A model generated the notes under the pieces. The model was not told where the DNA came from, made no database searches, and saw only the letters and a program-made list of their open reading frames with translations. Shown piece after piece: positions 33,389 through 60,664 of a stretch of 64,000 nucleotides of DNA (its first letter is position 1; every line of letters starts with the position of its first letter). A program made the translations under genes and the position numbers. Source of the DNA: the human T2T-CHM13v2.0 reference genome, Homo sapiens. The stretch lies in the NCBI RefSeq assembly GCF_009914755.1, contig NC_060926.1; one strand, given 5' to 3'.

Positions 33389-33634
33389 TCTGTAATCTGA
33401 TCATTTTTTACCATACCCACTCCTAACATCTTCATCCAAATCATTGTGATTTCCAGTGTGATCCAGTGTGAATTCTGCAATAGTCTCCCACCTCTGTCTT
33501 TGTTATCTCACTTCCTTACCCACCAATATAAATAAATAACATAATCAGATATAATATAATAATATATTATAAATGATATAAATCAGATTGTTTCTGTCCC
33601 GCATTTATAACCTCAGATGGCTTACCATATCATT

Positions 33635-36345
33635 AATATATATATTTATATGTATATATATTTTTATATATATAAATTTTATATATAAATATATATCTTA
33701 TATATATTTATATATAATACATATATATTTTATATATATAAAATATATATACATATTTATATATAAAATACATATGTATTATATACATTTATATATAATA
33801 CATATGTATTATATACAATTATATAATACATATTTATAAATATATATATTTATATATATTTATATATAAATAAACATATATTTATAGATTTATTTATATA
33901 AATATATATTTATATAAATATATATTTATATATATTTATATAAATATATATTTATATATATTTATATAAATATATATTTATATATATTTCTATATATATA
34001 TAAATATATGTATAAATATATATATTTATACATATATTCATATAAATATATATATTTATACATGTATTTATATGAATATATATTTATACATGTAATTATA
34101 TGAATATATATTTATACATGTATTTATATGAATATACACATTTATGCATGCATTCATATGAATATACACATTTATGCATGCATTCATATGAATATATACA
34201 TTTATGCATGCATTCATATGAATATATACATTTATGCATGCATTCATATGAATATATACATTTATGCATGCATTCATATGAATATATACATTTCTGCATG
34301 CATTCATATGAATATATACATTTCTGCATGCATTCATATGAATATATACATTTCTGCATGCATTCATATGAATATATACATTTCTGCATGCATTCATATG
34401 AATATATACATTTCTGCATGCATTCATATGAATATATACATTTCTGCATGCATTCATATGAATATATACATTTCTGCGTGCATTCATATGAATATATACA
34501 TTTCTGCGTGCATTCATATGAATATATACATTTCTGCATGCATTCATATGAATATATACATTTCTGCATGCATTCATATGAATATATACATTTCTGCATG
34601 CATTCATATGAATATATACATTTCTGCATGCATTCATATGAATATATACATTTCTGCATGCATTCATATGAATATATACATTTCTACATGCATTTATATG
34701 AATATATACATTTATACATGCATTTATATGAATATATACATTTATACATGCATTTATATGAATATATACATTTATACATGTATTTATATGAATATATTTA
34801 TTTATATATGTATTTATATAAATTTATATATTTATATAAATACATACATTTATATATGTATTTATATAAATACATACATTTATATATGTATTCATATAAA
34901 TACATACATTTATATATGTATTTATATATGTATTTATATAAATACATATATAAATATATGTATTTATATAAATACATATATAAATATATGTATTTATATA
35001 TGTATTTATATAAATATATGTATTTATATTTATATAAATACATATATTTATATATGTATTTATATAAATACATATATTTATATATGTATTTATATGTGTA
35101 TTTATATAAATATATGTATTTATATAAATACATATATTTATATAAATATATGTATTTATATAAATATATATATTTATATATGTATTTATATAAATATATA
35201 TTTATATATGTATTTATGTGAATATATATATTTATATATGTATTTATGTGAATATATATATTTTTATATGTATTTATATAAATATATTTTTATATGTATT
35301 TATATAAATATATATATTTTTATATGTATTTATATAAATATATATATTTTTATATGTATTTATATAAATATATATATTTATATACATATATATTCATATA
35401 TGTATATAAATATATTTATCTATGTATTTATATAAATATACATATTTATATAAATATATATATTTATCTATTTATGTAAATATACATATTTATATGAATA
35501 TATATATTTATATATTTATTCATATAAATATGTATATTTATATAAATTTATATATTTATAAATTTATATATTTATATAAATATATATATTTATAAATTTA
35601 TATATTTATATAAATATATTTAGTTATATATATTTATATAAATATATTTTTATAAATATTTATCTTTTTATTTATATAAATATATTTATTTTTCTAAATA
35701 TATATTTACATTAATCTATTTGTTGATATAAATATATTTAAATATATTTATTGATATAAATATATTTATATAACTAAATATAAATATATTTAGTTATATA
35801 AAGATATATATATTTATATAAATATATATATAAAGAGATATATTTATATATTTATTTATATAAATATATTTCTTTATATAAAGATATATGTAAATATATT
35901 TATTTATATAAATATATTTATATATGTAAATATATATTTATATATTTATATATTTATTTATATAAATTTATATATTTATATATTTATTTATATAAATTTA
36001 TATATTTATATATTTATTTATATATATAAAAATATATAAATATAAATATATATAAATATATATAATTATAAATATAGAAATAAATATAAATATAAATATA
36101 TAAATATATATAAATATAAATATATATAAATATAAATATATATAAATATAAATATATAAATATAAATATATATAAATATAAATATATAAATATAAATATA
36201 TAAATGTAGAAATATATAAATATAAATATATATAAATATGTATAAATATATAAATATATAAATATATAAAAATATATATATAAATACATATATAAATATA
36301 TAAATAAATATATATAAATACGTATATAAAAAAATATATATTTTT
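33635..36345. repeat. ~2.7-kb AT-rich low-complexity/(TA)n-derived tract
   Basis: Almost entirely A/T, with variable tatatttata and tataaatata units. Confidence 0.98.
34111..34800. repeat. 30-bp minisatellite, 23 in-phase units (consensus tttctgcatgcattcatatgaatatataca)
   Basis: Two units per 60-nt line in exact phase; 18 core units at 34141-34680. Confidence 0.98.
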
Positions 36346-46665: not shown

Positions 46666-47317
46666 AAGGTCAAGGAACCTGGAGAGCAAGAGAAGATGAA
46701 TATGAGATGAAGATGAAGAGCTGACTAAGGAGATATTTTTAGAAGCATGATAATGGCAGGTCATGGGGCTGGAAAGCGAGGATACTTCCAGTAAGTCAGG
46801 AGAGTAGTCAAGGAAGTGACGATGTCTTTGGGACACCCCAACTGTGGTGATCTTACAATCAACAAAATAAGCCTCAGCATTCACACTGTAGTTAAGCTCA
46901 TTCAAGCAAAGCTATCTCCAGTAGGGAATTTCCCCCATGAAGAGCATGAACATTTTGATTTTACCTGTTGTCAAGCTGATCCTCATTATTTGCTCATCTT
47001 AATGGTAAAAAACACAGCCTGGGTGGAGATTTAAGCTAATGAGACATGTGATATATGAACAAGCATGCACAACTACTGTACATGTCCACCCAGAGGACCA
47101 CCCAGAACACGCATACTAGCAACACCTCTTACCATGCCCTTATGAATAACCATGTAAGACTCCCATAAAGGAAGTCTCCCTAGTCTCATTCTTTGCCGTC
47201 TCAACCCTACTAGCACCCCGCCCTGAATCCTCTCACTCTCGGGGGTACTGTCTATTCTGCACCTAACTTTCAAAATATTGTTTCTCCTTTGCAATATGTA
47301 GTGACATATTTTTATTT

Positions 47318-47441
47318 AGCAGTTTTGAAACACTCTTTTTGTAGAATCCGCATGTGGATATTTGGACCGCTTTGAGGCCTTCGTTGGAAACGGGAATATC
47401 TTCACATAAACAGTAGACAGAAGCTTTCTCAGAAACTTCTT
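47318..47441 (+). repeat. Alpha-satellite (alphoid) fragment, B-type monomer, 124 bp
   Basis: agcagttttgaaacactctttttgtagaatccgcatgtggatatttggaccgctttgaggccttcgttggaaacgggaatatcttcacataaacagtagacagaagctttctcagaaacttctt follows the 171-bp alphoid consensus closely. Confidence 0.97.
47379..47395 (+). promoter_or_regulatory. Canonical CENP-B box
   Basis: CTTCGTTGGAAACGGGA, an exact 17-bp match with both CpGs intact. Confidence 0.96.
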
Positions 47442-48039
47442 CACTCTGTGATGCATCTCCTTTGCTCTATGCGTCTCGTTTAAATTATTTTAAACTGTGA
47501 AGACAAGAACCGAGGTCTCACAACAGCTGTCAACACTCAGTGGTGAAGAGCTGTGTGTTAAATGCCACGGGACTTAGATCATGTGCAAAAGATTTTATAA
47601 GCATTAAACTCCCAAGCAGAGTACTCTTATTTCAGAAAAATCACCCTGGGGGTAGCATAAAGACTGGGTAAGAAAGAAAGAATCTGTAGGTGGGAGGACA
47701 CCTAGGGCGGGGATGTTCATTATAGGACACTTGTAGTAGTCCAGAAGAAAGATGGCAGGAGCCTGAACCATGACAGTGAGTGAGATGAGGGAGCTAAGGG
47801 AAGTTCTGGGTATTCAAAGGAAATAGTTGCAGTTCTAAGCCTAAAAAACAGAGGATAGGTCACAGAAATAAATAATAGGGGCATATTGTTTCCCTAAATC
47901 TCTTCTGTGAGTTGTGCAATATTTTAATTTTACCACCCAAATTTCTATGTCCATGCATAATGGAATTCACTGAGGCAGTAGTGGCCGTCAATCATTGCTC
48001 CAGTGCAGAAGTTCAGCTCGTGCTGGGGTTATTTTCATG

Positions 48040-57022: not shown

Positions 57023-59223
<2,201 letters not shown>

Positions 59224-59928: not shown

Positions 59929-60664
<736 letters not shown>

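What the first reader, a model, noticed from the sequence alone, without database searches (positions are those of the whole stretch)
47297..47441. Orphan alpha-satellite fragment with a perfect CENP-B box inside a solo LTR
Seen: 124 bp (47318-47441) of centromeric alphoid sequence containing the exact CENP-B box CTTCGTTGGAAACGGGA, with all 4 CpGs of the fragment intact. There is no poly(A), no TSD and no other satellite in 64 kb. About 21 bp of unassigned filler (tgtagtgacatatttttattt) precede it. The host LTR breaks at ...ctttgcaata and resumes at cactctgtgatgcatctcc. Established: this box is the CENP-B binding site and marks B-type monomers of great-ape centromeric arrays. Inference: centromeric DNA or RNA was recently captured during double-strand-break repair. 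The break appears to fall in the LTR's AATAAA signal (LTR consensus recalled, not aligned). The result is a potential ectopic CENP-B site on a chromosome arm, possibly lineage-specific or polymorphic.
Basis: partly seen in the sequence, partly recalled or inferred. Interest (0 to 1): 0.82.

Follow-up and report, generated by a model that had tools for sequence, protein, structure and literature searches.

The report
Known stray alpha-satellite piece (sat_613)
A single partial centromere-type repeat carrying an intact CENP-B binding motif sits inside an old retroviral LTR on the arm of chromosome 2, but this insertion is already published and most likely a harmless scar of DNA break repair.

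Summary
Window 47318-47441 is alpha satellite, with an exact 17-bp CENP-B box at 47379-47395. It is the only alpha satellite in the 64 kb.

It lies in a solo LTR. Twenty paralogous LTR copies read GCAATA-AATT-ACTCT at this point, so about 4 bp inside the LTR's AATAAA were replaced by 146 bp (47297-47442). There is no target-site duplication and no poly(A).

The locus is already in print as sat_613 (Feliciello et al. 2020, PMC7719264). That paper gives 146 bp at hg38 chr2:114383778-114383923, a 0.9 monomer of type R1, in LTR43, 58 kb from DPP10. It dates the insertion to the human-chimpanzee ancestor, with gorilla and orangutan carrying the empty LTR. It never mentions CENP-B. A 2026 preprint catalogues CENP-B boxes on CHM13 arms and finds about 84% unbound.

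Best reading: end-joining capture of an alpha fragment at a double-strand break, with the box as a passenger. No near-identical donor was found; the best match is 95.2%.

Already known; low interest.

The parts
46854..47296 (+). Left (5') part of the host solo LTR, called LTR43 in Feliciello et al. 2020. It ends in ...TTTGCAATA, the first four bases of the LTR's AATAAA.
   Evidence: 39 non-self genomic copies at 79-83% identity, most covering query 5-447 of 46850-47296; left HSPs end at 47294-47296; no second copy in the window. The true 5' end may lie further upstream: the paper places the insertion at LTR43 position 506, whereas 443 nt are matched here.
47297..47308 (+). 12 nt of unassigned filler at the left junction
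   Evidence: no alpha similarity at any of 13 register shifts (best mean 4.26 of 12; 95% of random 12-mers do as well); no local template; the best match of the whole 21-nt filler is 16 of 21 in its own 3-kb block, and 5 of 21 blocks reach that; absent from all 20 LTR paralogs.
47309..47441 (+). Alpha-satellite segment of 133 nt, about 0.78 of a 171-bp monomer. Published as sat_613, type R1.
   Evidence: 47318-47441 matches genomic monomers end to end, best 95%; 47309-47317 match 324 relatives in register (mean 5.92 of 9, best 9 of 9; 0.15% of random window 9-mers reach this); 62 of 133 BLAST HSPs start at 47309 and 95 of 133 end at 47441.
47379..47395 (+). Exact canonical CENP-B box, with two CpGs at 47382 and 47391
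47442..47442 (+). Ambiguous junction base (C). Alpha relatives and most LTR paralogs both have T at the corresponding place. One paralog (L027) reads AATCACTCT.
47443..47535 (+). Right (3') part of the host LTR, resuming at ACTCTGTG...
   Evidence: 39 non-self copies at 80-88% identity covering query about 1-94; right HSPs start at 47441-47444 in most loci.

Best explanation
This is the published dispersed alpha repeat sat_613.

About 7-10 million years ago (dating from the paper), a double-strand break opened inside the polyadenylation hexamer of an already resident solo LTR43, on what was then ancestral chromosome 2B. The break was sealed by end joining that patched in a free fragment of pericentromeric monomeric alpha satellite. 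The patch was 133 nt of alpha plus 12 nt of filler, and about 4 nt of target (AATT) were lost. This is the signature of a class-2 templated sequence insertion, like a NUMT.

Whether the patch was DNA or a cDNA of alpha-satellite RNA cannot be told from the sequence.

The perfect CENP-B box was simply carried in from a monomer type that often has it. It has had too little time to decay. As a single, probably methylated site in CpG-poor intergenic DNA, it most likely has no centromeric or regulatory role.

Shown: the identity of the locus, the anatomy of the junctions, and the absence of retrotransposition marks. Inferred: the break-repair pathway and the lack of function.
For: Identity with sat_613:
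- The paper's row gives 146 bp at hg38 chr2:114383778-114383923, 0.9 monomer, type R1, LTR43, and 58,435 bp to DPP10.
- In the window the hub's masked stretch 47300-47445 is 146 bp, and DPP10 starts 58,693 bp further on (hub table).

Anatomy:
- Twenty distinct LTR paralogs are uninterrupted here and read GCAATA-AATT-ACTCT or near variants. Fourteen of the 20 have AATAAA across the break.
- There is no duplication of target at the inferred junctions and no A-tract at either end.
- The 12 filler nt have no alpha, LTR or local source.
- The insert size, 146 bp, is within the 73-414 bp reported for experimental break-patch insertions. Class 2 insertions are defined there by no TSD, no poly(A), microdeletion, microhomology and added nucleotides (passages of PMC5110952).

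Passenger box:
- The core motif is present in 38 of 330 sampled relatives, and the full canonical box in 25 of 330.
- All 7 of the closest relatives keep both box CpGs except one (L007).

Likely no binding:
- About 84% of arm CENP-B boxes lack CENP-B in RPE-1 cells.
- A methylated box binds CENP-B about 8-fold more weakly.
- The surrounding 5 kb has CpG obs/exp 0.17, typical of methylated DNA.

Not an artefact: the insert is present in hg19/hg38 and independently in CHM13.
Against: - The empty site was inferred from paralogs about 80% identical to this LTR, not from the orthologous gorilla or orangutan allele. The exact number of lost bases (2-4) and the absence of a 1-3 nt duplication are therefore not proven.
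- The authors who described the locus report a 3-nt 'target-site duplication' (CAT) and favour eccDNA recombination.
- No near-identical donor was found. The best match is 118 of 124 (95.2%), at chr9:44.75 Mb and in the 2q21 relic centromere. Only 40 of 2,360 candidates were scored genome-wide, plus 318 HSPs across the five 10-kb chunks of the relic that contain alpha and two chr9 chunks.
- The preprint says bound arm boxes are mostly those inside divergent alpha satellite. That raises the odds of binding for this site above the 10% base rate.
- Methylation and occupancy at this site were not seen.
Confidence: 0.7

Rival explanations
1. This is the published model for the locus. An extrachromosomal circle of alpha satellite, excised from a tandem array, recombined with the LTR through a 2-10 bp stretch of shared sequence. 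That stretch (CAT) is left duplicated at both ends.
For: Feliciello et al. 2020 list 'CAT' as the duplicated target sequence for sat_613 and propose this model for all dispersed repeats. CAT does occur at 47305-47307 and 47454-47456.
Against: - If CAT...CAT were the junctions, 47443-47453 would have to be alpha and 47297-47304 would have to be LTR.
- Instead, 47443 onward matches the LTR paralogs (ACTCTGTG.TG).
- 47297-47308 is absent from all 20 paralogs.
- A 3-nt repeat some 150 bp apart is expected by chance.
- A circle made by recombination between tandem monomers should be a multiple of 171 bp (inference). The alpha part here is 133 nt, and about 4 nt of target were lost rather than duplicated.
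Confidence: 0.12
2. LINE-1 machinery reverse-transcribed an alpha-satellite transcript into the site. This could be canonical target-primed reverse transcription, or the endonuclease-independent form acting at a pre-existing break.
For: The target is A/T-rich (AATAAATT). On the minus strand the insert would end in an A-rich stretch (47309-47317 read in reverse). Class 2 insertions have been proposed to be cDNA patches.
Against: - There is no TSD and no poly(A) abutting a junction. The A/T-rich 9 nt are alpha in register, not a tail, and 12 nt separate them from the junction.
- The canonical form is therefore excluded.
- The endonuclease-independent or cDNA-patch form leaves the same scar as DNA capture. 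It is a sub-case of the best explanation rather than a true rival.
Confidence: 0.1
3. The site is a functional 'ectocentromeric' CENP-B site. The intact box is bound in vivo and shapes local chromatin or the expression of DPP10, and its integrity reflects constraint.
For: The box is perfect at 17 of 17 positions. The preprint reports about 10% of arm boxes bound, mostly those inside divergent alpha satellite, and effects of CENP-B knock-down on three neighbouring genes.
Against: - A 17-bp motif with two CpGs is expected to survive 7-10 My without selection (inference from the low number of rare bases, 3 of 124).
- About 84% of arm boxes are unbound.
- A methylated box binds about 8-fold more weakly.
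- The nearest gene is 58 kb away.
- Gorilla and orangutan lack the insert altogether.
Confidence: 0.1
4. The insert is an assembly chimera, or the locus is part of a pericentromeric alphoid zone.
For: None found.
Against: - The same 146-bp repeat is in hg19, hg38 and the independent CHM13 assembly.
- There is no other alpha in the 64 kb.
- The nearest alpha hits on this chromosome are at about 95.04-95.06 Mb and 132.66 Mb, some 18-20 Mb away.
Confidence: 0.01

Closest known systems
sat_613 of Feliciello et al. 2020 (Genome Biol Evol 12:2125, PMC7719264)
   Same: It is this locus. It matches on 146 bp, on 0.9 monomer of type R1, on being embedded in LTR43, on lying about 58 kb from DPP10, and on hg38 chr2:114383778-114383923. 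The paper dates it to the Hominini ancestor, with the LTR empty in gorilla and orangutan.
   Different: - The paper never mentions CENP-B (0 occurrences).
- It reports a 3-nt duplication (CAT) and an eccDNA recombination model.
- The paralog comparison here instead indicates loss of about 4 nt, 12 nt of filler and no duplication.
Class 2 templated sequence insertions (Onozawa et al.; review PMC5110952, passages read)
   Same: A short patch (73-414 bp in experiments) from a distant locus placed at a double-strand break. No TSD, no poly(A), with microdeletion and added nucleotides at the junctions.
   Different: Those were defined as human polymorphisms or induced events with a unique, at least 95% identical donor, and their screen discarded alpha-satellite sequences. 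Here the event is fixed and old, and the donor is a repeat family with no identified source copy.
Ectocentromeric CENP-B box sites (Saggese et al. 2026, bioRxiv 10.64898/2026.05.28.728588)
   Same: It is a match to NTTCGNNNNANNCGGGN on a CHM13 chromosome arm, which is the definition of the 1,359 catalogued sites. It should therefore be one of them.
   Different: Its row could not be seen because bioRxiv supplements are closed, so its class (box-only or bound) and population frequency are unknown. Unlike many arm sites, which the preprint calls degenerate or spurious, this one is canonical and of clear alpha origin.
sat_84, the only other Hominini-age dispersed alpha repeat in that paper
   Same: A single monomer-sized alpha insert inside an older repeat (L1PA16), with the same age class.
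   Different: It is type J1A (a young family) on chr11. It was not examined here.

Membership tests
Alpha satellite (dispersed euchromatic alpha repeat in the sense of Feliciello et al.) | Sequence homology to 171-bp alpha monomers over at least 50% of a monomer | tested here: met
   124 nt match end to end at up to 95%. Homology extends to 133 nt, 47309-47441.
Alpha satellite (dispersed euchromatic alpha repeat in the sense of Feliciello et al.) | Single repeat lying outside (peri)centromeric arrays | tested here: met
   It is the only alpha in the 64 kb. The nearest alpha hits on the chromosome are about 18-20 Mb away.
Alpha satellite monomer type R1 (SF5) | Classification by monomer-type HMMs (HumAS-HMMER / Shepelev annotation) | not testable with these tools
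   Taken from Table 1 of PMC7719264. That R1 is the B-type, box-bearing partner in SF5 is recalled, not tested.
CENP-B box | Canonical 17-mer YTTCGTTGGAARCGGGA, including the 9 contact bases | tested here: met
   Exact match at 47379-47395. The motif definition is as quoted in the preprint.
CENP-B box | Occupied by CENP-B in cells, with unmethylated CpGs | not testable with these tools
   No CUT&RUN or methylation data are available here.
Class 2 templated sequence insertion (break-repair patch) | No TSD, no poly(A), no cryptic poly(A) signal use | tested here: met
   The TSD-like 16-mer is an internal LTR motif.
Class 2 templated sequence insertion (break-repair patch) | End-joining marks: microdeletion, added nucleotides, 0-few nt of microhomology | tested here: met
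   AATT (2-4 nt) is missing relative to 20 paralogs. There are 12 nt of filler. One ambiguous base sits at the right junction. This rests on paralogs, not on the orthologous empty allele.
Class 2 templated sequence insertion (break-repair patch) | An identifiable donor locus retained elsewhere in the genome | tested here: inconclusive
   The best match is 95.2%. The search was not exhaustive: 40 of 2,360 candidates were scored.
LINE-1-mediated (class 1) insertion | TSD of at least 5 bp and a poly(A) tail at a TTTT/A-like site | tested here: not met
eccDNA short-homology integration (model of PMC7719264) | Short sequence duplicated at both insert ends, one copy from the target | tested here: not met
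   CAT at 47305 and 47454 is not at the junctions defined by the LTR paralogs. 47443-47453 is LTR and 47297-47308 is not.
Solo LTR (LTR43) | A member of a dispersed LTR family with no partner LTR or internal region nearby | tested here: met
   39 + 39 non-self genomic matches to its two halves. No second copy in the window. The name LTR43 is from the paper; no repeat library was available here.

The most novel reading that the evidence does not exclude
The single, perfectly canonical CENP-B box of sat_613 is actually occupied by CENP-B in some human cell types. That would make it a natural, Hominini-specific one-box 'ectocentromeric' site. The empty gorilla and orangutan alleles would then serve as a built-in evolutionary control for what one CENP-B box does to arm chromatin upstream of DPP10.

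A second, compatible twist is that the fragment came in cis from the then-active centromere of ancestral chromosome 2B. One of the two best matches (95.2%) lies in its 2q21 relic.
Probability: 0.1. Interest if true: 0.4.

Novelty: already known. Interest (0 to 1): 0.15.

Why it matters
It matters little on its own. The locus, its age and its host element are published, and arm CENP-B boxes are catalogued.

This check adds three small things:
- The published repeat carries a perfect CENP-B box, which that paper does not mention.
- For this locus the junctions look like an end-joining patch (loss of about 4 nt, 12 nt of filler) rather than the published 3-nt duplication and eccDNA model.
- The insertion destroyed the LTR's poly(A) hexamer.

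If the box were bound, the site would be a clean natural test of a single CENP-B box outside a centromere.

Tried and rejected
- **16-mer as a TSD.** The pair at 47283-47298 and 47456-47471 (D12) is rejected. The same pair of motifs is in the uninterrupted paralogs.
- **Whole 21-nt filler as degenerate alpha.** A gapped global alignment against 64 monomers was no better than shuffles: 167 of 300 shuffles reached the best score. An in-register test then split the filler. The proximal 9 nt are alpha. The distal 12 nt are not, at any of 13 shifts.
- **Local template for the filler.** This is the 80% direct repeat at 47911-47930 (D5). It is rejected because 5 of 21 3-kb blocks of the window give 16 or more matches of 21.
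- **Junction elsewhere in the genome.** A 30-nt pattern spanning filler and alpha found only the locus itself at up to 3 mismatches.
- **Donor search.** I searched genome-wide, then in 70 kb of the 2q21 relic and 20 kb of chr9. Nothing was closer than 95.2%.
- **Earlier findings of this scan.** These were closed to the session.
- **LTR copy L015.** It was left out of the junction comparison because it has no right-hand match; its LTR is interrupted elsewhere. L029 is the same genomic copy as L019 and was counted once.
- **Other paper by the same group.** PMC7348797 does not mention DPP10, sat_613 or CENP-B in its main text. Its supplementary table of 31 repeats was not opened.

Full report
**What is there**

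The window is chr2:114762001-114826000 of T2T-CHM13 (hub note; confirmed). At 47318-47441 the sequence is alpha satellite. It matches genomic monomers end to end, and the best non-self hits are 95% identical (43 matches listed, 40 of 2,360 first-look candidates scored).

The exact 17-base CENP-B box occurs once in the 64 kb, at 47379-47395. The 9-contact-base core motif also occurs once, with no match in 100 shuffles.

Seven 3-kb alpha arrays used as queries hit the window only at 47303-47456. So there is no other alphoid DNA here. The hits on this chromosome are the locus itself, 95.04-95.06 Mb and 132.66 Mb, so other alpha DNA is 18-20 Mb away.

**The host element and the empty site**

The two flanks belong to one dispersed LTR family.
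- 46854-47296 has 39 non-self matches at 79-83% identity.
- 47443-47535 has 39 non-self matches at 80-88% identity.
- No second copy lies in the window, so it is a solo LTR.

I compared 22 fetched copies with the window across the break. One (L015) has no right half and was dropped. Two (L019, L029) are the same copy. That leaves 20 distinct paralogs.

All 20 are uninterrupted at this point and read GCAATA-AATT-ACTCT or close variants. Fourteen of the 20 have AATAAA across the break position.

In the window, AATT is replaced by the 146 bases 47297-47442.

There is no duplication of target at these junctions and no A-tract at either end. A TSD-like 16-mer found by the repeat finder (D12) is an internal motif present in the paralogs too.

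The base at 47442 (C) is ambiguous. Alpha relatives and most paralogs both have T at the corresponding place, and one paralog reads AATCACTCT. The loss is therefore 2-4 nt.

**The 'filler'**

- **47309-47317 (9 nt)** agree with 324 alpha relatives in register. The mean is 5.92 of 9 and the best is 9 of 9. Only 0.15% of 1,991 random window 9-mers do as well.
- **47297-47308 (12 nt)** show no alpha similarity at any of 13 register shifts.

Tested as the whole 21-nt stretch, the filler has no local template. It is absent from the LTR paralogs. A 30-nt pattern across the filler-alpha junction occurs nowhere else in the genome at up to 3 mismatches.

So the insert is 12 nt of filler plus 133 nt of alpha, about 0.78 of a monomer.

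**It is already published**

Feliciello et al. 2020 (PMC7719264; I read the abstract, sections 12, 13, 14 and 16, and supplementary file 1 part 2) list sat_613 as follows:
- hg38 chr2:114383778-114383923 (146 bp);
- 0.9 monomer, type R1;
- intergenic, 58,435 bp from DPP10;
- embedded in LTR43 at position 506;
- inserted in the ancestor of Hominini (about 7-10 Ma), with the ERV empty in gorilla and orangutan;
- 'target-site duplication' CAT.

In the window the masked stretch 47300-47445 is also 146 bp, and DPP10 begins 58,693 bp beyond it (hub table). I take the identity as settled.

I could not re-test the dating, because no ape genome is available here. The paper does not contain the word CENP-B.

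**Mechanism**

The scar consists of a few target bases lost, a dozen unassigned bases at one junction, no TSD and no poly(A). That is the scar of a fragment patched into a double-strand break by end joining. It matches the definition of class 2 templated sequence insertions (PMC5110952, passages). The screen in that work had discarded alpha satellites.

The published eccDNA and short-homology model fits this locus poorly.
- The two CATs (47305, 47454) are not at the junctions defined by the paralogs.
- 47443-47453 is LTR sequence.
- The alpha part is not a multiple of 171 bp.

Canonical LINE-1 insertion is excluded. Whether the patch was DNA or cDNA cannot be decided from the sequence.

The caveat throughout is that my empty site comes from paralogs about 80% identical to this LTR, not from the orthologous allele.

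**Donor**

The two best matches are 118 of 124 identical. One is at chr9:44,752,865. The other is at chr2:132,660,654, inside the relic centromere of ancestral chromosome 2B. The two share nearly identical flanks.

Scanning 70 kb of the relic and 20 kb of chr9 gave 318 HSPs and nothing closer. Against 330 sampled relatives, three window bases are rare: 47349 C, 47353 T and 47413 G. No donor is identified, and the genome-wide search was not exhaustive.

**The CENP-B box**

Among the 330 sampled relatives, 38 keep the core motif and 25 keep the canonical box. Most of the 7 closest relatives have it. So the box is a family trait carried in with the fragment.

Of the four CpGs, three are shared with relatives. 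The one at 47349 is rare in the family, with T in 317 of about 330.

A 2026 preprint (10.64898/2026.05.28.728588; I read the abstract, sections 5, 21 part 1, 22 and 29, and passages) maps 1,359 such boxes on CHM13 arms. About 84% are unbound in RPE-1 and about 10% are bound, the bound ones mostly within divergent alpha satellite. This site fits the preprint's search motif, but its row is in supplements I could not open.

CENP-B binds a methylated box about 8-fold more weakly (PMC12513831, section 7 passage). The surrounding 5 kb is CpG-depleted, with obs/exp 0.17.

I therefore rate the box as a neutral passenger, with roughly a 10% chance that it is bound.

**Context noticed**

The head-to-head telomere repeats of the chromosome 2 fusion lie at chr2:114,027,401-114,028,200 in this assembly. 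That is 0.78 Mb proximal to the insert. If the published dating is right, the insertion happened when this DNA lay near the short-arm end of ancestral chromosome 2B, about 18 Mb from that chromosome's then-active centromere. The history of the fusion is established knowledge that I recalled.

**Verdict**

The locus is an already described, fixed, 7-10-My-old dispersed alpha repeat. My only additions are the refined junction anatomy and the note that it carries a perfect CENP-B box.

Noticed in passing
window 33627-36345: A 2.7-kb AT-rich tandem array with periods of 30, 42 and 90 nt, about 30 copies of the 90-mer, and 78-82% matches. It is not centromeric satellite. It resembles the AT-rich minisatellites found at some rare fragile sites (recalled).
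   Followed up: no
outside the window: G000:C2:114,027,401-114,028,200 (L043): Head-to-head telomere-type repeats, with forward hexamers switching to reverse at about 114,027,700. This is the ancestral chromosome 2 fusion point, 0.78 Mb proximal to the alpha insert.
   Followed up: partly
L002 (C9:44.75 Mb) and L003 (C2:132.66 Mb): The two best alpha matches have almost identical flanks over at least 60 nt on each side. This indicates a segmental duplication shared by the 2q21 relic centromere and the chr9 pericentromere.
   Followed up: no
window 47283-47298 and 47456-47471: The LTR family carries an internal imperfect direct repeat (TCTCCTTTGC...) on either side of its poly(A) signal. It mimics a 16-bp target-site duplication around anything inserted there.
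   Followed up: yes
window 60019-60437 and 59022-59222: A long (TTTC)n microsatellite of about 107 copies and an (AT)n of about 100 copies.
   Followed up: no
window 47451: The LTR reads TGTGATG where none of the 20 paralogs shown (or 8) has A at that base. The alpha relatives read TGTG.TG shortly after the fragment's end. This may be a chance substitution or a trace of imperfect homology used at the right junction. The orthologous ape alleles would tell.
   Followed up: partly
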